Notes: generated by a model from the sequence alone, not told the origin. A stretch of 64,000 nucleotides of DNA from an uncultured Candidatus Berkelbacteria bacterium (GCA_903834195.1 CAILIB010000029.1:7715-71714); one strand, 5' to 3'. Shown: positions 265-43,272, counted from the first letter of the stretch. A program made the numbers and translations.

Positions 265-340
265 GCGCTTGTAGCTCAGTGGATAGAGCGTCTGGTTGCG
301 GTCCAGAAGGTCGCAGGTTCGATTCCTGCCAGGCGCACCA
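265..340 (+). tRNA. tRNA-Arg, anticodon GCG, 3' CCA encoded
   Basis: Hand-folded cloverleaf: acceptor GCGCTTG/CAGGCGC, D arm GCTC-AGTGGATA-GAGC, anticodon arm TCTGG-TTGCGGT-CCAGA, T arm GCAGG-TTCGATT-CCTGC, discriminator A then CCA. Confidence 0.85.
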
Positions 341-341
341 T

Positions 342-417
342 AAAAATATATGTGTATTCATTCTTGGTCCTCCCGAAAATAGTACGGATGCGGAAGAATG
401 AATACACATATATTTTT
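342..417 (+). repeat. Long hairpin, copy 1 of the conserved-core family (directly after the tRNA)
   Basis: Perfect 24-bp stem 342-365 / 394-417 (AAAAATATATGTGTATTCATTCTT). The 28-nt apex GGTCCTCCCGAAAATAGTACGGATGCGG is related to the cores at 585-620 and 30761-30796. Confidence 0.8.
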
Positions 418-564
418 ATTTTGCAGTTGGCAAATCGAAACCAGGTTCGACCACGCCAATACAATACTTTGCGAAGCAAAGAGCGGGGGTAGCGCAACGC
501 TTCTGCACCGCTCCACATTGCGAAGCGGTGGAAGGTGGAGAAAGTGAGCGTCCGTCCTGCCAAT

Positions 565-640
565 ATAAATACACTCAGTGTTTTACTTGTCCTCCCCGTA
601 AATATTCGGGATGCGGAGGCAAAACACTGAGTGTATTTAT
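565..640 (+). repeat. Long hairpin, copy 2 of the conserved-core family (abuts the comFC stop codon)
   Basis: Perfect 20-bp stem 565-584 / 621-640 (ATAAATACACTCAGTGTTTT). The 36-nt apex is ACTTGTCCTCCCCGTAAATATTCGGGATGCGGAGGC. Confidence 0.8.
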
Positions 641-1315
641 TTAGCCGCCAAAACGATGTTTATACGCAAACGCTACACCAACAACCCTTGCAGCACCAGC
701 ATCGAGTAAAATTTTCCTACACGTTTTAAGAGTACTTCCAGTAGTTACAACATCATCAATCAAAATGTACTCAGAATTTTTTTCAACCACATAATCATCT
801 CCGATATAAAATGCAGTTTGAGCAGCTCGCTGGCGCAAGCGCCGTCCCTGGCCAACTAATGTCTTCCCTGCACGCCGATGCAAAATCTGTGTATTCATAG
901 GTAATCCAGCCCACCGGGCAAATACTCGTGCCAAAAGTTCTGCCTGATTATATCCCCTCGATTTTAATCGAGAATAACTAACCGGAACAGGAACTACGAC
1001 AGGATCTTTACTACACTGCAACGCCCGTAATAAATCTTCAGCTGAACAGGCCAGATGCAACACGTCCATCAATACTTCTGCACTTTCATACAACCCACCA
1101 TATTTTAGACCATACAAAAGTTCTCGAGCTGCACTATCCTCGTGAGCAAACAACCCGTACACTTCACTCCCAATAGGCTCAAATAGAAATCGCTCTGATT
1201 GTTTTTTAGAACAGTCCACACACAACCACGCACCACTATTCCGACACACAACACAACGTCGAGGAAAAAAGAGGTCAAGAAAAAACTGCTCCACTTGGAG
1301 AATCATCTCTACCAT
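641..1315 (-). CDS. comFC: ComF-family phosphoribosyltransferase-like protein (ComFC)
   Basis: N-terminal Cys-rich motif (RRCVVCRN...CVDC), LKYGG motif, C-terminal PRTase signature ILIDDVVTTGSTL. Confidence 0.85.
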   Translation of the reverse strand: MVEMILQVEQFFLDLFFPRRCVVCRNSGAWLCVDCSKKQSERFLFEPIGSEVYGLFAHEDSAARELLYGLKYGGLYESAEVLMDVLHLACSAEDLLRALQCSKDPVVVPVPVSYSRLKSRGYNQAELLARVFARWAGLPMNTQILHRRAGKTLVGQGRRLRQRAAQTAFYIGDDYVVEKNSEYILIDDVVTTGSTLKTCRKILLDAGAARVVGVAFAYKHRFGG

Positions 1316-3056: not shown

Positions 3057-3147
3057 TGTTTTTGTACCTTCTTCTCAATTGCTCAATAACTCGCAATAGC
3101 TCGAACAATTTCACTGCTTCGAATAAGGTACAAAAACCAACACATAA

Positions 3148-28757: not shown

Positions 28758-28786
28758 TTGACATAATTCAATTTTGCGGGTATACT
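28758..28786 (+). promoter_or_regulatory. Consensus sigma70-type promoter, divergent from the TrmB gene
   Basis: TTGACA (28758-63) - 17 nt - TATACT (28781-86). Confidence 0.7.
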
Positions 28787-28902
28787 GCCGTTTGTCAGTT
28801 GAAAAGGGAGTGAGTACGCAATGAACCGGCCTAAACAATTATCGGCTTGGCTTGCCTCACCCTTTTCAACAAAAGACGAGCTCATTAAAAACTCGACCAC
28901 CT

Positions 28903-28952
28903 GGAGGCGCTGGCGCTTTTCTAAGTCAGGTTCGATTCCTGCCGCCTCTCCA
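28903..28952 (+). other. tRNA-like minihelix (acceptor stem + T arm + CCA) lacking D and anticodon arms
   Basis: GGAGGCG (28903-09) pairs with CGCCTCT (28943-49). The T-arm-like CAGG-TTCGATT-CCTG is identical in loop and most of the stem to the tRNA-Arg T arm at 311-327. It is followed by CCA (28950-52). Confidence 0.5.
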
Positions 28953-29097
28953 ATCTTCGGCTGTCCGTTCCAGACTGCCCCTCCTTCCAGCTTATAAAAA
29001 TTTCTAAGTTGAAAGGAGGGGTCAGTGATGGAGTCTAAAAGATGCGATGCGACTTGTTCGTAACCCTCTATGTATGACAACTCATACCTGGAGCGTT

Positions 29098-30302: not shown

Positions 30303-30680
30303 ATGAAGAAACTTTACATCGGCAATTTGTCGTACAACACAACTGAAGATACCATCGTTGCCTTTTTGGCATCAGTCCTTCCAGAAGGAACAGACGCTAC
30401 TACGGTTATCACCAAAGTAGAACTGATCCCTGGTGAGACTACTCCTAACAAGGGGTTTGGTTTCGCAGAAATCGCTGACGACGCGATTGCAGAAACAATG
30501 ATCCAACAGCTTGACGGTCAAGAAGTTGACGGTCGCCCACTACGTATTAACGAGGCTCGTCCAAAGACAGATCGTCCACGTACTGGTGGTGGTTACAATG
30601 GCGGCGGCGCAAGTCGTGGCGGTTATAACGGCGGTGGTTCATCATCGTCTTACGGCGGCGGAAATCGTCGTAGCTACTAA
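30303..30680 (+). CDS. RRM-type RNA-binding protein with Gly-rich tail
   Basis: RNP2 LYIGNL, RNP1 KGFGFAEI, C-terminal GGGYNGGG repeats. Confidence 0.9.
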   Translation: MKKLYIGNLSYNTTEDTIVAFLASVLPEGTDATTVITKVELIPGETTPNKGFGFAEIADDAIAETMIQQLDGQEVDGRPLRINEARPKTDRPRTGGGYNGGGASRGGYNGGGSSSSYGGGNRRSY

Positions 30681-30700: not shown

Positions 30701-30733
30701 AAAAAGAGGCTCCTCACGGAGCCTCTTTTTTTG
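30701..30733 (+). terminator. Rho-independent terminator of the RBP gene
   Basis: AGAGGCTCC-TCAC-GGAGCCTCT followed by T6, with an A-tract upstream. Confidence 0.85.
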
Positions 30734-30740
30734 TTCTACG

Positions 30741-30818
30741 GAAGTAGCATATCTTTCACTGCCTCCGCATCCCGAGTACTTTCGGGGAGGACAAGTAGTG
30801 AAAAGATGTACTACTTTT
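30741..30818 (-). repeat. Long hairpin, copy 3 of the conserved-core family (core inverted)
   Basis: Imperfect ~20-bp stem (30742-60 / 30797-816). The core at 30761-30796 is the reverse complement of ACTTGTCCTCCCCGAAAGTACTCGGGATGCGGAGGC. Confidence 0.75.
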
Positions 30819-31041
30819 TCGTACGGATCATCTCAAGCTCAAGGTGAATATATCCAATCCCCATCACCACTATTCCCGCAATAAACTTTGCGAGCGGGTT
30901 ATGAAATGAATAATCGCCAAAGTAATTAAATAACCATTCAACACCACCAAGTGCAAAAATTGTTGCACCAATCAGAATAAACCCTAAGGCAACTGGGTAA
31001 AAATAAGCTTTGTCCGCTTCAAATTTGTGGTACTTGTACAT
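30811..31041 (-). CDS. Small two-TM membrane protein
   Basis: 76 aa, two hydrophobic helices, no recognised family. Confidence 0.5.
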   Translation of the reverse strand: MYKYHKFEADKAYFYPVALGFILIGATIFALGGVEWLFNYFGDYSFHNPLAKFIAGIVVMGIGYIHLELEMIRTKK

Positions 31042-38588: not shown

Positions 38589-39506
38589 ATGAAGAAGAAC
38601 CTCAAAGTTATCTTTGGAATCTTGATTGGCACCCTAACCGTTGCCCTCTTTGTTGGTATTCTGCGCAATTCCAACTTTGAAGTACTCAACCCGGCTGGGA
38701 TGATTGCGACTAAAGAGCGCAACTTAATGTCACTAGCTGCAATTTTAATGCTCGTAGTGGCAATTCCAGTTTTTGTCATGACATTTACAATTGCCTGGAA
38801 GTACCGCGCCAGCAACACCAAGGCAACCTACCAACCAAATTGGGACCATAACACCTTGGCCGAGGTTATTTGGTGGGGCATCCCATGTATCATCATCGCC
38901 ATACTAAGTGTTGTAACCTGGAACAGTTCTCACGAGCTTGATCCGAGCCAATCTATCGTATCTTCAAAAGCACCAATTACTATCCAAGTAGTCGCACTGC
39001 AATGGAAGTGGCTATTTATATATCCAGAACAGGGTATTGCCACAGTTAACTACCTCGAATTTCCAGAAAACACTCCTGTACATTTTGAAGTTACGTCTGA
39101 TGCACCGATGAACGCCTTTTGGATTCCACAGCTTGGAAGCCAAATCTACGCCATGCCAGGTATGTCGATGCCACTTCACTTAATTGCTGACAAAACCGGA
39201 AGTTACGATGGCCTTTCTGCAAACATTAGCGGCGCCGGGTTTGCTGGAATGAAGTTCAAGGCCACTTCTGCATCTGCTGCAGACTTTAATAGCTGGGTAG
39301 AATCTGTGCAACAATCCCCTGATGCACTCACCTCATACAGCTACACAACGCTAGCCGAGCCAACTATTAACACCCCACCAACTTCCTTTGCCTCTGTTCC
39401 TGGTGGACTCTACAACCAAATCGTTATGAAATACGTCATGCCAATGCGAGCGCTTGATGATGCATCATTGAACGGCATGATTATGAACAACAATCACATC
39501 CAATGA
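38589..39506 (+). CDS. cyoA: Cytochrome bo3-type quinol oxidase subunit II
   Basis: The segment [50 protein letters not shown] is close to the E. coli CyoA segment as I recall it. No CuA Cys-x-x-x-Cys ligands. Confidence 0.9.
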
Positions 39507-41470
39507 ACGTACTTTTCGGCAACCTCACACTTTCTGCCTTTCAACACGACCCAGTTCAACTTGGTGGTGTAGTGTTCATGTTCTTGGGCATTATTGGCGT
39601 ACTCGGGCTGATCACATATTTAAAACGCTGGAAGTGGATTTGGACTGAATGGGTTACAACCACCGACCACAAAAAGATCGGTGTCATGTACATCATTATT
39701 GCGGTTGTCATGTTACTGCGTGGGTTAATGGACGCCTCAATACTCCGATTACAACAGGTTTTATCGGTCGGAAGCTCAAACGGAGTACTTACCTCTGACC
39801 ACTTCCAACAGATTGTCACTGCACACGGCACGATTATGATTTTCTTCGTGGCTATGGGACTTCTCTTTGGAATCATAAATTTGGTCGTCCCACTTCAGAT
39901 TGGTGCGCGTGATGTTGCCTTTCCATTCTTGAATTCAACCAGTTTCTGGCTCTATGCATTGGGAGCCGTGCTGATTAATATGTCACTATTCGTGGGAGAA
40001 TTCGCCGCAACTGGATGGCTCGCCTACCCACCTCTTTCTGAACTCGCCTACAGCCCAGGCGTCGGTGTCGATTATTATATTTGGGCACTGCAGATCTCTG
40101 GCGTAGGCAGCCTACTCTCAGGTGTAAACTTCCTCGTCACCATTTTCAAAATGCGCTGTCAGGGGATGAGTCTGATGAAAATGCCTATGTTCGTTTGGTC
40201 GGTAATCGGTAGCATGAGCCTGGTTGTATTCGCCTTTCCAATCCTTACAGCCACATTAGCAATGCTCTCACTCGATCGTTTCTTCGGAATGCACTTCTTT
40301 ACCGCCGGTATGGGTGGCAATCCAATGATGTACGTTAATCTGATCTGGGCATGGGGACATCCTGAGGTGTATATTCTCGTTCTTCCAGCTTTTGGAATCT
40401 TCTCAGAAATTGTCGCCACCTTTTCGCAAAAACGACTCTTCGGCTACAAGTCGATGGTTTGGGCAATTATGTCGATTACCTTCCTCTCGTTTGTAGTTTG
40501 GCTACACCACTTCTTCACCATGGGAGCCGGCGCCGATGTGAACTCGTTCTTCGGTATTATGACGATGATTATTGCAATTCCTACAGGTGTAAAGGTATTT
40601 AACTGGCTCTTCACGATGTACCGTGGACGGGTTCATTTTACTACGCCAATGCTCTGGTTCTTGGGCTTTGTTACTACCTTTACTATTGGTGGAATGACCG
40701 GTGTTCTCATGGCCTCTCCTCCTGCTGATTTCCAACTACATAACAGCCTGTTTCTAGTCGCCCACTTTCACAACATGATTATTGGCGGTGTTGTCTTTGG
40801 CTTCTTCGCTGGCATTACGTATTGGTTTCCTAAGTACTTTGGCTTTAAACTCAACGAAAAAATTGGCGCCTATGCCTTCTGGTGCTGGATTGTCGGCTTC
40901 CTCCTTGCCTTTGTCCCGCTCTATATCCTCGGTCTAATGGGTGCTACGCGACGCCTTGATCACTATGACCCATCAATGGGATGGCAGGGGCTGTTCATTG
41001 TTTCTGGAGTTGGATTGATGATTATTTTCCTCGGTGTAGCTCTGCAAATTCTTCAATTCGCAGTTAGCATCTGGCAACGCAAACAGAATCGTGACCTCAC
41101 TGGTGATCTATGGAACGGTCGCACACTCGAGTGGTCCACCACATCTCCACCACCTCATTACAACTTTGCAATTCTTCCTGTAGTCGAAGATCGAGATCCA
41201 TTCTGGGTAGCTAAAGAAAAAGGCGCCCCACTTACTTCACGGCATTATGAAGATATCGTTATGCCGAAGAATACCCCACTGGGACTGTATATCGCTACCT
41301 TCGCCTTCTTGTTTGGTTTTGCAATGGTTTGGCATATGACCTGGCTGGCAATCGTAGGAGTAATTGGAGTAATTACCGTTCTGGCCATTCGTTCGTTTGA
41401 TGACGATACTCATTACACTATTACAGCTGCCGAAGTTGCCCATATTGAATCAGGAGCACACCATGAGTAA
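39503..41470 (+). CDS. cyoB: Cytochrome bo3-type quinol oxidase subunit I
   Basis: Heme-copper oxidase signatures [27 protein letters not shown]. Confidence 0.95.
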
Positions 41471-42038
41471 GGTTCTACACCAACCAGAAGGAACGCTAAA
41501 ATTTGGCTTCTGGGTCTATCTAATGACTGACTGCGTCCTCTTCGCCAGCTTCTTCGCAACATACATCGTCCTCCGTAATAACACCTTTGGTGGACCTGCA
41601 GGACACGATATTTTCAACCTCAATTACGTTCTCGTTGAAACTATTATCTTGCTCATCAGTAGTTTTACTTCTGGACTAGCAATGTTAGCCGTGCAAAACA
41701 AAGAAAAGGGTCAGGCACTGATGCTTTTCGGTGTTACACTTCTCCTTGGTCTTACGTTTCTCTTCATGGAAGTAAGCGAGTTCCGAAATCTCATCGCCGA
41801 TGGTAACGGACCTGCTCGCAGTGGATTTCTTTCAAGTTACTTCTCTCTGGTTGGACTTCACGGTCTTCACATTGCCGCAGGTTCAATTGCCATGGCTATT
41901 GGCATGTTCCAGATTATGAAGAAAGGTCTCACTGAAAGCATTTCCGAACGACTCAACTGTCTGAGTCTATTTTGGCACTTCCTTGATATCATCTGGATCT
42001 TCATTTTCACCATTGTGTACCTAATGGGAGCACTCTAA
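41463..42038 (+). CDS. cyoC: Quinol oxidase subunit III
   Basis: Five-TM subunit III-like sequence. ATG 41463 overlaps the cyoB stop (ATGAGTAA). Confidence 0.85.
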
Positions 42039-42400
42039 TGCCACACACTCCGCACACCCACTCTGAACACGGTAACCTTCATTCCTACCAACTTGGCTTT
42101 GTACTCTCAATTGGCCTGACCATTGCAGCGTTTTACATCGTAACAAATCACCTCTTTAGTACGAATGGAATCATTGCCAGTATCTTCGGATTAGCCGTTG
42201 TGCAACTTGTGGTTCAACTAGTCTTCTTCCTTCACCTCGATAAAGAATCCAAACCTCGGATGAACTTAATGGCATTTCTCTTTGCTCTCATGGTTGTACT
42301 TATTATTGTTGGAGGTTCACTCTGGGTGATGTACCACATGAACTACACCATGACCCCTTCTGAGATGAACAACTATATGGTTGGCCAAGAAGGACTATAA
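42038..42400 (+). CDS. cyoD: Quinol oxidase subunit IV
   Basis: Small three-TM protein in the canonical operon position. TAATG overlap with cyoC. Confidence 0.8.
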   Translation: MPHTPHTHSEHGNLHSYQLGFVLSIGLTIAAFYIVTNHLFSTNGIIASIFGLAVVQLVVQLVFFLHLDKESKPRMNLMAFLFALMVVLIIVGGSLWVMYHMNYTMTPSEMNNYMVGQEGL

Positions 42401-42408
42401 ACACCGGT

Positions 42409-43272
42409 TTGAGCAAGCTTTTCAAACAGTATTACGTACTGACTAAGCCGGGCATTATCTACGGCAACTCTATTGCTGTAATTGGTGGCTTTTTTCTGGC
42501 TGAACGTGGTCATTTTAACCTACAGCTTTTTTTGGCTACTCTTTTGGGCAGTGCATTAATTATGGCATCAGCCTGCGTGTTCAATAATTACATCGACCGA
42601 GATATTGATGTGCTAATGAAACGCACCAAAATACGCGCACTTGTCACCGGCGAAGTTACCACACTTAGTGCACTAGTATATGCCAGTATTCTCGGAATAC
42701 TCGGTGTAACCAGCTTAATCGTTTTCACAAACTACCTAACAACACTCATAGGTATCATCGGATTCATAACCTACGTGATTATCTATGGCTGGTGGAAGCG
42801 TCGTTCAGCCTTCGGAACTATTATTGGTAGCATCGCTGGAGCCGTGCCACCACTCGCCGGATATACTGCAGTAACTAATCACCTCGACATTGGTGCGGTG
42901 CTCGTTTTTCTCATCATGGTACTTTGGCAAATGCCTCACTTTTACTCCATTGCCATCTTCCGCCGAGATGATTACACACATGCCTCTATTCCGGTACTGC
43001 CAGTCTCGCGTGGCGTTGAAACAACTAAGCGTCATATCCTTGCGTATCTAATTGCATACTTGCTTGTAAGCCCTCTCCTTACGCTCTTCGGGTACACGGG
43101 CTACACATACGCCGCCGCAGTACTTTTAATGAGCATGCTTTGGCTCTGGCGGTACTATAGTGGGCTTCATACTACCGATGCCAAATTATGGGCACGTAAA
43201 CTCTTTACGACCTCCTTGATTGTCATGCTTATCTCGAGCGTTATGCTTTGCCTCGGTCCAGTGTTACCATAG
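42409..43272 (+). CDS. cyoE: Protoheme IX farnesyltransferase (heme O synthase)
   Basis: UbiA-family motif NNYIDRDIDVLMKRTKIRAL, about 9 TM, TTG start. Confidence 0.9.
   Translation: MSKLFKQYYVLTKPGIIYGNSIAVIGGFFLAERGHFNLQLFLATLLGSALIMASACVFNNYIDRDIDVLMKRTKIRALVTGEVTTLSALVYASILGILGVTSLIVFTNYLTTLIGIIGFITYVIIYGWWKRRSAFGTIIGSIAGAVPPLAGYTAVTNHLDIGAVLVFLIMVLWQMPHFYSIAIFRRDDYTHASIPVLPVSRGVETTKRHILAYLIAYLLVSPLLTLFGYTGYTYAAAVLLMSMLWLWRYYSGLHTTDAKLWARKLFTTSLIVMLISSVMLCLGPVLP

What the first reader, a model, noticed from the sequence alone, without database searches (positions are those of the whole stretch)
342..640. Two very long hairpins with unrelated stems but a shared ~30-nt apical core, bracketing the tRNA-Arg / comFC junction
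Copy 1 (342-417) has a perfect 24-bp stem and copy 2 (565-640) a perfect 20-bp stem. The stem sequences are completely different (AAAAATATATGTGTATTCATTCTT versus ATAAATACACTCAGTGTTTT).

The apices are homologous:
- Copy 1: GGTCCTCCCG-AAAATAGTA-CGGATGCGG
- Copy 2: TTGTCCTCCCCG-TAAATATT-CGGGATGCGGAGG

The core itself folds (CCTCC/GGAGG and CC(C)G/C(G)GG with an asymmetric GATGC bulge). Copy 1 has lost one C on the left and one G on the right, which is a compensatory change.

A conserved centre with variable flanking inverted repeats is the opposite of a MITE/REP layout. It suggests one of two things:
- a ~30-nt element that targets the loops of pre-existing terminator hairpins, or
- a structured protein-binding apex grafted onto terminators.

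The core carries both an anti-SD-like CCUCC and an SD-like GGAGG. I do not recognise it as a known motif.
Basis: seen in the sequence. Interest (0 to 1): 0.62.

Follow-up and report, generated by a model that had tools for sequence, protein, structure and literature searches.

The report
Shared 36-nt tip on terminator hairpins
One uncultured small-genome bacterium (probably Patescibacteria) carries the same ~36-base bulged mini-hairpin at the tips of three otherwise unrelated long hairpins at gene 3' ends; it matches no known repeat or RNA family, but only three copies can be seen, so its role is unresolved.

Summary
Hairpin 1 (342-417, 24-bp perfect stem) and hairpin 2 (565-640, 20-bp perfect stem) have unrelated stems and a homologous apex. 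I found a third copy on the minus strand (core 30761-30796, hairpin 30742-30816).

Copies 2 and 3 share two identical 14-nt blocks, ACTTGTCCTCCCCG and CGGGATGCGGAGGC, and differ only in the 8-nt apical loop.

- **Position:** all three abut the 3' end of a real gene or transcription unit.
- **Orientation:** it follows transcription, not the replication strand.
- **Relatives:** they have ordinary terminators in the same two slots, and a 17-bp tetraloop hairpin right after tRNA-Arg CCA. The long trailer hairpin at the tRNA is therefore ancestral and the core is an addition to its tip.
- **Distribution:** no copy in Rfam, 185,579 species genomes, JGI metagenomes, IMG/VR, phages, plasmids or five relative loci.
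- **Mobility genes:** no transposase or HUH gene in the 72-kb contig.

Best reading: a young, lineage-restricted dispersed module copied into the dyad centre of palindromic 3'-end hairpins and transcribed as an apical recognition platform. A purely selfish REP-like mini-element is nearly as likely. With three copies, covariation and mechanism cannot be tested. Interest is moderate.

The parts
265..340 (+). tRNA-Arg (anticodon GCG). Its CCA end is 1 nt from the first base of hairpin 1.
   Evidence: ARAGORN; Rfam tRNA 71.9 bits. Orthologous tRNA-Arg(GCG) genes are present in L146 and L147.
342..417 (+). Hairpin 1: 24-bp perfect AT-rich stem with a 28-nt interior, followed by a U-rich tail (TTTTTATTTT). 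It occupies the slot of the tRNA-Arg trailer hairpin/terminator seen in relatives.
   Evidence: -34 kcal/mol, z = -7.9. The relatives' 17-bp tetraloop hairpins sit at the same position.
363..396 (+). Core copy 1: CTTGGTCCTCCCGAAAATAGTACGGATGCGGAAG. Relative to copies 2 and 3 it has +G, -C, a 9-nt loop, -G, G>A and C>A.
   Evidence: (nhmmer 25 bits; the model was built from these same three copies, so this score is circular).
434..451 (+). 18-nt stem-loop ATCGAAACCAGGTTCGAC between the two hairpins, identical in relative L146. It is probably the body of a small transcription unit that hairpin 2 ends.
   Evidence: Alignment; fold.
565..640 (+). Hairpin 2: 20-bp perfect stem with a 36-nt interior. 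Its last base abuts the stop codon of the convergent comF-like gene (641-643). It occupies the slot of L146's second terminator, which is co-directional with the tRNA.
   Evidence: (-36.8 kcal/mol, z = -8.3).
585..620 (+). Core copy 2: ACTTGTCCTCCCCG-TAAATATT-CGGGATGCGGAGGC.
   Evidence: (nhmmer 39.6 bits; circular, as for copy 1). The same sequence appears in an independent Logan contig.
641..1315 (-). ComF/ComFC-like phosphoribosyltransferase gene, convergent with the tRNA-Arg unit.
   Evidence: Pfam DZR_2 and Pribosyltran, both below their cutoffs. Homologues are named ComF family.
30742..30816 (-). Hairpin 3: imperfect ~18-bp stem (8+6+4 bp) with a 36-nt interior. Its 5' arm contains the TAG stop of ORF76. 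It has no U-tract of its own.
   Evidence: -33 kcal/mol, z = -5.0.
30761..30796 (-). Core copy 3: ACTTGTCCTCCCCG-AAAGTACT-CGGGATGCGGAGGC.
   Evidence: (nhmmer 38.9 bits; circular, as for copy 1).
30811..31041 (-). ORF76, a small two-TM membrane protein and a real conserved gene. Hairpin 3 lies in its 3' UTR.
   Evidence: 54 cluster representatives with full-length matches at 40-54% identity; hydropathy.
30701..30730 (.). Classic bidirectional intrinsic terminator, AAAAAGAGGCTCC-GTGA-GGAGCCTCTTTTT. It is shared by ORF76 and the convergent RRM-protein gene, so hairpin 3 sits between the stop codon and this terminator.
   Evidence: I13, 13 nt, 100%; RRM_1 Pfam hit for 30303-30680.

Best explanation
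The core is a young, lineage-restricted dispersed module of about 36 nt, an imperfect palindrome: ACTTG-TCCTCCCCG / 8-nt A/U-rich loop / CGGG-ATGC-GGAGGC. It has been copied at the DNA level into the exact dyad centre of long palindromic hairpins that end transcription units. Deleting it leaves perfect palindromes with T^A at the centre.

It is then transcribed in the sense direction with the upstream tRNA, small RNA or mRNA. There it forms a small bulged helix on top of the long 3' stem. The two invariant strands, UCCUCCC and GGAUGCGGA, serve as a recognition platform for a protein or a complementary RNA. The long stem supplies termination or 3'-end protection.

**Shown:**
- Homology of the three cores.
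- Their central position in unrelated stems.
- Their location at gene 3' ends in terminator slots.
- At the tRNA-Arg site, the relatives' tetraloop hairpin in the same position shows the long hairpin pre-dates the core.
- Absence of the core from relatives and from the databases searched.

**Inferred:**
- Transcription of the hairpins.
- Which strand is functional.
- That the apex is bound by a factor.
- The means of dispersal: centre-of-palindrome insertion, or conversion between hairpin tips.
For: 1. **Common descent.** Three cores found against 0 expected. Copies 2 and 3 are 28/28 identical in the blocks although 30 kb apart in unrelated stems. This cannot be convergence.
2. **Central position.** Each core lies at the centre of a hairpin whose outer pairs all differ yet stay paired. 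Nine of the 10 outer pairs show both-side changes.
3. **Gene 3' ends.** Hairpin 1 starts 1 nt after the tRNA CCA, hairpin 2 ends at the comF stop, and hairpin 3 includes the ORF76 stop.
4. **Relatives.** L146 has two plain terminators, both with U-tracts on the tRNA strand, in the slots of hairpins 1 and 2. L146 and L147 have 17-bp tetraloop hairpins right after the tRNA-Arg CCA.
5. **Orientation.** All three cores are sense to the upstream unit. GC skew is negative across the whole window, so it is one replichore, yet copy 3 is on the opposite strand.
6. **Rate heterogeneity.** All 3 differences between copies 2 and 3 fall in the 8 loop positions of 36 (P = 0.008). Copy 1's C and G deletions are on opposite sides of the inner helix.
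7. **Association with long stems.** In the window, the only near-perfect stems of 17 bp or more with a 28-36-nt interior are the three that carry the core. One other long-stem hairpin (3058-3137) has a larger, unrelated 46-nt interior.
Against: - Only three copies are visible, and nothing is conserved beyond this one genome. Any function must therefore be young or dispensable.
- There is no covariation inside the core.
- The isolated sense core is no more stable than shuffles. The antisense strand folds into a cleaner structure, with a conserved U-G where the sense strand has C-A.
- Copies 2 and 3 lie between convergent genes, so 'sense' depends on assuming the 418-564 unit is transcribed on the + strand.
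- Loop positions may simply be more mutable.
- There are no expression data, and no candidate binding protein beyond a neighbouring RRM gene.
Confidence: 0.45

Rival explanations
1. A purely selfish, non-autonomous mini-element, REP- or MITE-like in size. A trans-acting enzyme encoded elsewhere in the genome inserts it into the single-stranded tip or cruciform centre of long palindromes. It has no host function, and the hairpins are simply its landing pads.
For: - Identical blocks in unrelated stems, absent from all relatives and all databases, which suggests recent spread.
- Precise central T^A position in perfect palindromes.
- It is a 36-nt imperfect palindrome with a bulge, the size and form of REPs and of IS200/IS605 subterminal hairpins (PMC2817692, PMC3333891).
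- There is precedent for IS elements that insert specifically into REP hairpins (PMC1525189).
Against: - No transposase, HUH or integrase gene in the 72 kb.
- No target-site duplication and no terminal inverted repeats.
- No GT(A/G)G head.
- Orientation does not follow the replication strand, as an ssDNA lagging-strand mechanism would predict.
- Differences between copies are confined to the loop (P = 0.008).
Confidence: 0.3
2. A DNA-level protein-binding or structural site on extruded cruciforms or hairpins, acting independently of transcription. Examples would be a recombination, replication-pausing, nucleoid or DNA-uptake signal.
For: - The perfect 20-24-bp arms are more typical of DNA palindromes kept perfect by template-switch correction than of RNA stems, which tolerate G-U pairs. 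There are none in hairpins 1 and 2.
- The asymmetric centre would stabilise long palindromes.
- The organism has competence genes (comF).
Against: - Density is about 1 per 24 kb, far below that of known uptake sequences (my own knowledge).
- All copies are confined to gene 3' ends and follow the direction of transcription.
- The blocks are not a symmetric operator: there is a 4-5-nt insertion in one arm.
Confidence: 0.1
3. A trans-acting anti-Shine-Dalgarno module. The C-rich strand UCCUCCCC, displayed at a hairpin tip, pairs with ribosome-binding sites of target mRNAs, as in cuckoo/CcsR-type sRNAs. The module is released as a 3'-derived small RNA.
For: - Cuckoo RNAs have exactly this layout: a conserved CCUCCUCCC anti-SD motif at hairpin loops, highly variable stems and multiple copies (PMC4615179).
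- The core contains UCCUCCC.
- In the sense ensemble the block is only partly paired, with unpaired probability roughly 0.2-0.6.
Against: - The C-rich strand faces a built-in GGAGG/CGGG partner, so it is largely self-sequestered.
- These are single hairpins with 18-24-bp stems, not tandem short hairpins with open loops.
- The equally invariant GGAUGCGGA block is unexplained by this model.
- No promoter is evident.
Confidence: 0.08
4. Chance similarity, an assembly artefact, or a one-off local duplication with no family behind it.
For: Copies 1 and 2 are only 223 nt apart, and no copy was found outside this genome.
Against: - The third copy is 30 kb away on the other strand with 28/28 identical block positions.
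- The flanks of the copies share no other homology.
- Hairpin 2 was recovered in an independent read set.
- ComF-bearing contigs from this organism are on record in several assemblies.
Confidence: 0.02

Closest known systems
Cuckoo / CcsR (RSs0680, SmelA075-type) sRNA family of alpha-proteobacteria
   Same: A conserved C-rich, anti-SD-like motif at hairpin apices; stems that vary freely through compensatory change; several copies per genome in different contexts (PMC4615179).
   Different: - Cuckoo RNAs are independent genes made of 2-4 tandem short hairpins with the 9-nt motif unpaired in the loop.
- Here single 18-24-bp hairpins at gene 3' ends carry a 36-nt self-paired module with a second invariant strand (GGAUGCGGA).
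- The phylum is different.
- No Rfam hit at E <= 10.
REP / REPIN elements mobilised by RAYT (Y1 HUH) transposases
   Same: A short (~20-40 nt) imperfect palindrome dispersed in intergenic regions at gene 3' ends, often between convergent genes. It can act as an mRNA 3' stabiliser or terminator (PMC2817692, PMC3333891).
   Different: - REPs have a GT(A/G)G head and are GC-rich.
- They occur in tens to hundreds of copies.
- They themselves form the stem, and a rayt gene is flanked by them.
- Here there is no GTAG head, the copy number is unknown, no rayt gene is in reach, and the repeat is the tip of a larger unique hairpin.
IS elements that insert specifically into REP hairpins (IS1397, ISKpn1, IS621, ISPpu9)
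   Same: Precedent for DNA insertion aimed at a hairpin-forming palindrome rather than at a plain sequence (PMC1525189).
   Different: - Those are kb-sized autonomous IS elements that recognise a conserved REP sequence.
- Here the insert is 36 nt and non-coding.
- Its three targets share no sequence apart from being palindromes with T^A at the dyad.
Rho-independent (intrinsic) terminators
   Same: Same genomic slots as the relatives' terminators. Hairpins 1 and 2 are followed by U-rich tails.
   Different: - The stems are 18-24 bp and AT-rich with a 28-36-nt structured interior, compared with 8-17 bp stems and 4-nt loops in the relatives.
- Hairpin 3 has no U-tract and is followed by a separate classic terminator.
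Apical protein-binding hairpins such as the iron-responsive element or phage coat-protein operators (from my own knowledge)
   Same: A conserved loop and bulge on a stem whose sequence is free. Recognition is by shape plus a few bases.
   Different: No binding factor is known here, and there is no evidence beyond the conservation pattern among three copies.

Membership tests
REP / RAYT system | GT(A/G)G head 5' of the palindrome (PMC2817692) | tested here: not met
   Neither strand of the core has GTAG or GTGG at its head (core sequences).
REP / RAYT system | GC-rich imperfect palindrome that itself forms the stem-loop | tested here: inconclusive
   The core is an imperfect palindrome (CCUCC-CCG / CGG-GAUGC-GGAGG), but the isolated fold is no better than shuffles. 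It sits inside a much larger unique hairpin.
REP / RAYT system | A rayt (Y1 HUH transposase) gene flanked by two inverted REPs | not testable with these tools
   No such gene in the 72-kb contig.
REP / RAYT system | High copy number (tens to hundreds per genome) | not testable with these tools
   Three copies in 72 kb. Extrapolation to the whole genome is unverified.
MITE | Terminal inverted repeats conserved between copies, plus a target-site duplication | tested here: not met
   The ends ACTTG and GAGGC are not inverted repeats. The flanks are inverted, not direct, repeats, are unique to each copy, and show no TSD.
Cuckoo / CcsR sRNA | 2-4 adjacent hairpins, each with CCUCCUCCC unpaired in the loop (PMC4615179) | tested here: not met
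   These are single hairpins. The motif is UCCUCCC(C), flanked by a complementary strand. No Rfam match at E <= 10.
Intrinsic terminator | A short GC-rich stem, a 3-8-nt loop, then a U-tract | tested here: inconclusive
   The consensus scan did not call them because the interior is 28-36 nt and the stems are AT-rich. Hairpins 1 and 2 do have U-rich tails and sit in the relatives' terminator slots. Hairpin 3 has no U-tract.
IS200/IS605-type subterminal hairpin (ssDNA, lagging-strand insertion) | Copies co-oriented with the replication strand; tnpA or tnpB nearby | tested here: not met
   Uniform GC skew indicates one replichore, yet copy 3 is inverted relative to copies 1 and 2. No tnpA or tnpB in the window.
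CRISPR repeat (solitary repeat unit) | Arrayed repeats separated by unique spacers, or a cas locus; repeat of 28-37 nt with an internal stem | tested here: not met
   No arrays in the window. All collection hits are single chance matches. The flanks are inverted copies of each other, not spacers. The resemblance to type I-E repeats (GUxxUCCCCG...CGGGGAU) is from memory only.
Any Rfam family | Covariance-model match | tested here: not met
   At the gathering threshold only the tRNA matches. At E <= 10 the only other hits are generic long-hairpin miRNA models, far below their gathering scores.

The most novel reading that the evidence does not exclude
The core is a new kind of minimal mobile or convertible module. 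It homes to the dyad centre (T^A) of long palindromic terminators whatever their sequence, so its target is a DNA or RNA shape rather than a sequence. It has been exapted as a factor-binding cap on transcript 3' ends in a lineage of ultra-small bacteria.
Probability: 0.2. Interest if true: 0.7.

Novelty: new variant of a known kind. Interest (0 to 1): 0.42.

Why it matters
Short dispersed palindromes such as REPs, MITEs and BIMEs are normally recognised by conserved stems or termini. Here the conserved part is the tip and the stems are free, which implies either shape-directed insertion at hairpin centres or selection for an apical recognition module on 3'-end hairpins.

Both possibilities would be informative for Patescibacteria-type organisms, whose RNA processing and mobile-element biology are almost unknown and whose genomes have little room for neutral sequence.

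The case is also practically useful. Such hairpins break short-read assemblies: the Logan contig ends inside one.

The significance is capped for now because only three copies in one metagenome-assembled genome are visible, and nothing shows function.

Tried and rejected
- **Loose pattern on IMG/VR.** 120 rows, all chance. This showed that collection scans need 20 or more specified bases.
- **Genome scan, TCCTCCCCGN{6,10}CGGGATGCGGA.** 23 single hits in high-GC sequence (GC 0.54-0.72), roughly half of it recognisably coding, with no stems. All chance.
- **Two metagenome scans.** The strict one gave 0 hits. The indel-tolerant one gave 20 hits, all chance with flanking complementarity of 6 nt or less.
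- **Other collections.** Viral rescan gave 0. Phage and plasmid BLAST gave only E = 1-4 hits.
- **Orthologous empty site for copy 3, via the DAG-kinase gene.** Synteny is not conserved.
- **Reaching other contigs of the same genome through pilin paralogues.** Only 3 hits, none from another contig.
- **L170.** It is a closer relative (72-76% nt identity) but only 3 kb, and it has no core.
- **MAFFT alignment of the cores.** It misplaces copy 1's indels, so I hand-aligned them for nhmmer.
- **Inverted duplication of the tRNA 3' end.** The repeat finder extended hairpin 1 to 39 nt at 87%. I rejected this reading because the TTGGCA on the right belongs to the conserved 426-460 stem-loop shared with L146.
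- **Considered and dropped on inspection:**
  - K-turn: there is no opposing G-A pair.
  - CsrA site: RGGAUG is present, but inside a helix, with the two GGA motifs only 4 nt apart.
  - Translation start after GGAGG: only 4- and 25-codon ORFs, or bad spacing.
  - Snap-back synthesis origin: the core is asymmetric inside perfect arms.
  - Integrative-element att duplication: the 17-nt T-arm repeat at 28927 diverges immediately after the T-arm.

Full report
**1.

Reading 1-1500 and the repeat scan confirm both hairpins.
- Hairpin 1: arms 342-365 and 394-417, 24 bp, perfect.
- Hairpin 2: arms 565-584 and 621-640, 20 bp, perfect.

Both fold far better than shuffled sequence on either strand (z about -8 to -10). 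The stems are unrelated except for a marginal, out-of-register GTGTATTYATT match (D8).

The apices are homologous. TCCTCCC-N8-14-GGATGCGGA occurs three times in the window against 0.00 expected. The third hit was new: on the minus strand, the core at 30761-30796 lies inside an imperfect ~18-bp stem at 30742-30816. A pattern that tolerates copy 1's indels also finds exactly these three. A hand-aligned nhmmer profile finds no weaker copies in the window, the 8 kb of contig beyond it, or the relatives' loci.

**2. Anatomy of the repeat**

Copies 2 and 3 are ACTTGTCCTCCCCG-N8-CGGGATGCGGAGGC.
- They are identical at all 28 block positions.
- They differ at 3 of the 8 loop positions (TAAATATT against AAAGTACT).
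- The chance that all three differences fall in the loop is 0.008.

Copy 1 (CTTGGTCCTCCCG-AAAATAGTA-CGGATGCGGAAG) carries one extra G, has lost one C and one G on opposite sides of the inner helix, and has GGAAG in place of GGAGG. Its outer stem (CUU/AAG) has therefore encroached on the core.

Invariant in all three copies are CTTG, TCCTCCC and GGATGCGGA.

The predicted fold has these parts, from base to tip:
- the long stem;
- a 4-6-nt 5' bulge (ACUUGU);
- a CCUCC/GGAGG helix;
- a 5-nt 3' bulge (GAUGC);
- a CCG/CGG helix;
- an 8-nt A/U-rich loop.

The isolated core is no more stable than shuffles (z +0.9 to -0.8). In the ensemble the C-rich strand is only partly paired. The antisense strand folds more sharply, with a U-G pair where the sense strand has C-A.

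When the alignment is anchored on the core, 9 of the 10 outer-stem pairs show both sides changed with the pair kept. No pair inside the core covaries.

Removing the core leaves perfect palindromes with T^A at the dyad: TT^AA, TT^AA and CT^AG. There is no target-site duplication and there are no terminal inverted repeats.

**3. Context**

The three hairpins each abut a gene end.
- Hairpin 1 starts 1 nt after the CCA of tRNA-Arg(GCG).
- Hairpin 2 ends at the base before the stop codon of the convergent ComF-like gene.
- Hairpin 3 contains the TAG of ORF76. This is a genuine conserved small membrane protein, with 54 cluster representatives and full-length matches.
- Hairpin 3 is followed 11 nt later by a separate classic bidirectional terminator at 30701-30730.

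Between hairpins 1 and 2 lies a GC-rich 147-nt segment. Its first stem-loop contains 18 nt (434-451) identical to relative L146.

No transposase, integrase or HUH gene occurs anywhere in the 72-kb contig.

The contig comes from a groundwater metagenome (ENA ERZ18638863). Its gene content includes T4SS pilins, a PMT glycosyltransferase and a cytochrome bo-type oxidase, and its ComF homologues are named Patescibacteria. This indicates a Patescibacteria/Saccharibacteria-type organism. That placement is an inference from gene content.

**4. Comparison with relatives**

The nearest genomes are distant: 48% ComF identity and 57-58% DAG-kinase identity. A 3-kb fragment, L170, is closer at 72-76% nucleotide identity.

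L146 keeps the PMT-comF-tRNA-Arg synteny. There the tRNA is followed by these elements, in order:
- a 17-bp hairpin with a GAAA loop and a U-tract;
- the conserved 18-nt stem-loop;
- a second 9-bp terminator whose U-tract is also on the tRNA strand.

L147 likewise has a 17-bp hairpin with a UCCG tetraloop starting right after the tRNA CCA.

Three conclusions follow.
- The window's hairpins 1 and 2 occupy two co-directional terminator slots.
- A long hairpin abutting tRNA-Arg is ancestral in this lineage.
- The novelty in the window is the 28-36-nt core at the tip.

None of the five relative loci (about 77 kb) has the core. None has a stem of 11-13 bp or more with a large (15-50 nt) unstructured interior: the two hits in L146/L147 are inner registers of the small-loop hairpins, and L170 was inspected by eye only.

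In the window, the only near-perfect stems of 17 bp or more with a 28-36-nt interior are the three that carry the core. One unrelated single-copy hairpin at 3058-3137 has a larger 46-nt interior.

**5. Distribution**

| Collection | Result |
|---|---|
| Rfam, gathering threshold | only the tRNA |
| Rfam, E <= 10 | only generic long-hairpin miRNA models, far below threshold |
| 185,579 GTDB species genomes | 23 single hits in high-GC sequence, no stems: chance |
| JGI metagenomes, strict pattern | 0 hits |
| JGI metagenomes, indel-tolerant pattern | 20 chance hits |
| IMG/VR | chance hits with the loose pattern, then 0 |
| Phage and plasmid BLAST | E = 1-4 only |

An independent Logan assembly from run ERR4193932 breaks inside the hairpin-2 core with identical sequence, so the structure is real. 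The family is therefore known only from this organism. These are exact-pattern scans, so diverged relatives could have been missed.

**6. Orientation**

All three cores are sense to the co-directional upstream unit: the tRNA, the 418-564 unit, and ORF76. GC skew is negative across all 64 kb, so the window lies on one replichore. Yet copy 3 is inverted relative to copies 1 and 2. This argues against a replication-strand-specific ssDNA insertion mechanism of the IS200/IS605 type and mildly favours a transcript-level role. The evidence is weak: n = 3, and two copies lie between convergent genes.

**7. Interpretation**

Twenty-eight identical bases in three unrelated hairpins cannot be convergent, so some DNA-level copying into hairpin centres must have happened. 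What is open is whether the module is merely selfish or has a role.

The following points tilt me towards a transcribed apical recognition module that spread recently (confidence 0.45):
- the loop-restricted differences between copies 2 and 3;
- the paired indels in copy 1;
- the transcription-linked orientation;
- the strict 3'-end placement.

A REP-like selfish mini-element is the main rival (0.3). DNA-level binding sites (0.1) and a cuckoo-like anti-SD sRNA module (0.08) remain possible. Chance or artefact is essentially excluded (0.02).

**8. Comparison with known systems**

- **Cuckoo/CcsR sRNA family.** This is the closest in layout: CCUCCUCCC in the loops, free stems, multiple copies (PMC4615179). 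The architecture differs and there is no Rfam match.
- **REP/RAYT.** This is the closest in size and genomic niche (PMC2817692; PMC3333891). The GT(A/G)G head is absent, the repeat forms the tip rather than the stem, and no rayt gene could be examined.
- **IS1397, ISKpn1, IS621.** These show that hairpin-directed insertion exists (PMC1525189). They are autonomous elements that recognise a conserved REP sequence.

I file the finding under none of these families. It is best described as a new variant among short dispersed palindromic repeats.

**9. Verdict**

The finding is real, and I extended it with a third copy and with empty-site-like comparisons in relatives. It is unexplained by any known family. 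It is documented by only three copies in one MAG and has no functional evidence. Interest is 0.42. The most novel reading, shape-directed homing to palindrome centres plus exaptation as a 3'-end cap, has a probability of about 0.2.

Noticed in passing
window 28758-28951 (+): A near-consensus promoter (TTGACA, 17 nt, TATACT) is followed by about 155 nt of structured sequence. It contains a 13-bp-stem hairpin with a 47-nt interior (28798-28869). It ends in a tRNA-like minihelix: a 7-bp acceptor-like stem (GGAGGCG/CGCCTCT), a T-arm and CCA. The 17-nt T-arm (28927-28943) is identical to that of tRNA-Arg (314-330). ARAGORN and Rfam call nothing here (the tmRNA model matches only 11 nt), and it was not seen next to TrmB in L168 or L169. 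It may be an unannotated tRNA-like ncRNA or a tRNA remnant.
   Followed up: partly
window 28978-29021 (+): A 21-nt-arm hairpin, CCCCTCCTTCC.../...GGAAGGAGGGG, sequesters a strong SD just upstream of the GTG/ATG starts at about 29026-29047. It looks like a translational control hairpin.
   Followed up: no
window 434-451; L146 10718-10735 (reverse strand): The 18-nt stem-loop ATCGAAACCAGGTTCGAC (TCGAA/TTCGA arms) is identical in two genomes whose ComF proteins are only 48% identical. In both it lies between tRNA-Arg and comF. It may be a conserved small RNA or an operator.
   Followed up: partly
window 467-481 and 515-530; L146 10924-10945 and 10968-10989: TTGCGAAGCAA-type mini-hairpins (GCGAAGC core) recur around tRNA-Arg. 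There are two downstream of the tRNA in the window. In L146, two 22-nt copies of GTTGCGAAGCAACGAAAGCGCG lie upstream of the tRNA. This may be a second small repeat family shared across genera.
   Followed up: no
window 3058-3137: A single-copy long hairpin (13+3-bp stem, 46-nt interior, z about -4) fills the HSP20/NTP-transferase spacer. That spacer is only 9-25 nt in L146 and L147. Long-stem, large-interior hairpins at gene 3' ends are therefore a wider habit of this genome, not restricted to the core.
   Followed up: partly
window 265-340; L146 10787-10862; L147 12518-12593: The tRNA-Arg has anticodon GCG in all three genomes. From my own knowledge, bacteria usually read CGN codons with ACG (inosine) or CCG tRNAs, so this may be a lineage peculiarity.
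   Followed up: no
window 38589-43272: A cytochrome bo-type oxidase operon (COX2, COX1, COX3 and a UbiA-family haem O synthase) sits in a small-genome, Patescibacteria-like contig.
   Followed up: no
L170 2190-2399: In the closer relative, the spacer after the pilin cluster holds four hairpins. One is a 14-bp TTGAGGAGGAGGAC/GTCCTCCTCCTCAA stem carrying a cuckoo-like CCUCCUCC strand. The corresponding spacer in the window is about 23 nt.
   Followed up: no
L001 (Logan ERR4193932 contig), 3' end: The short-read contig terminates exactly inside the hairpin-2 core. These palindromes break de Bruijn assemblies, which may be why copies are under-represented in public contigs.
   Followed up: yes
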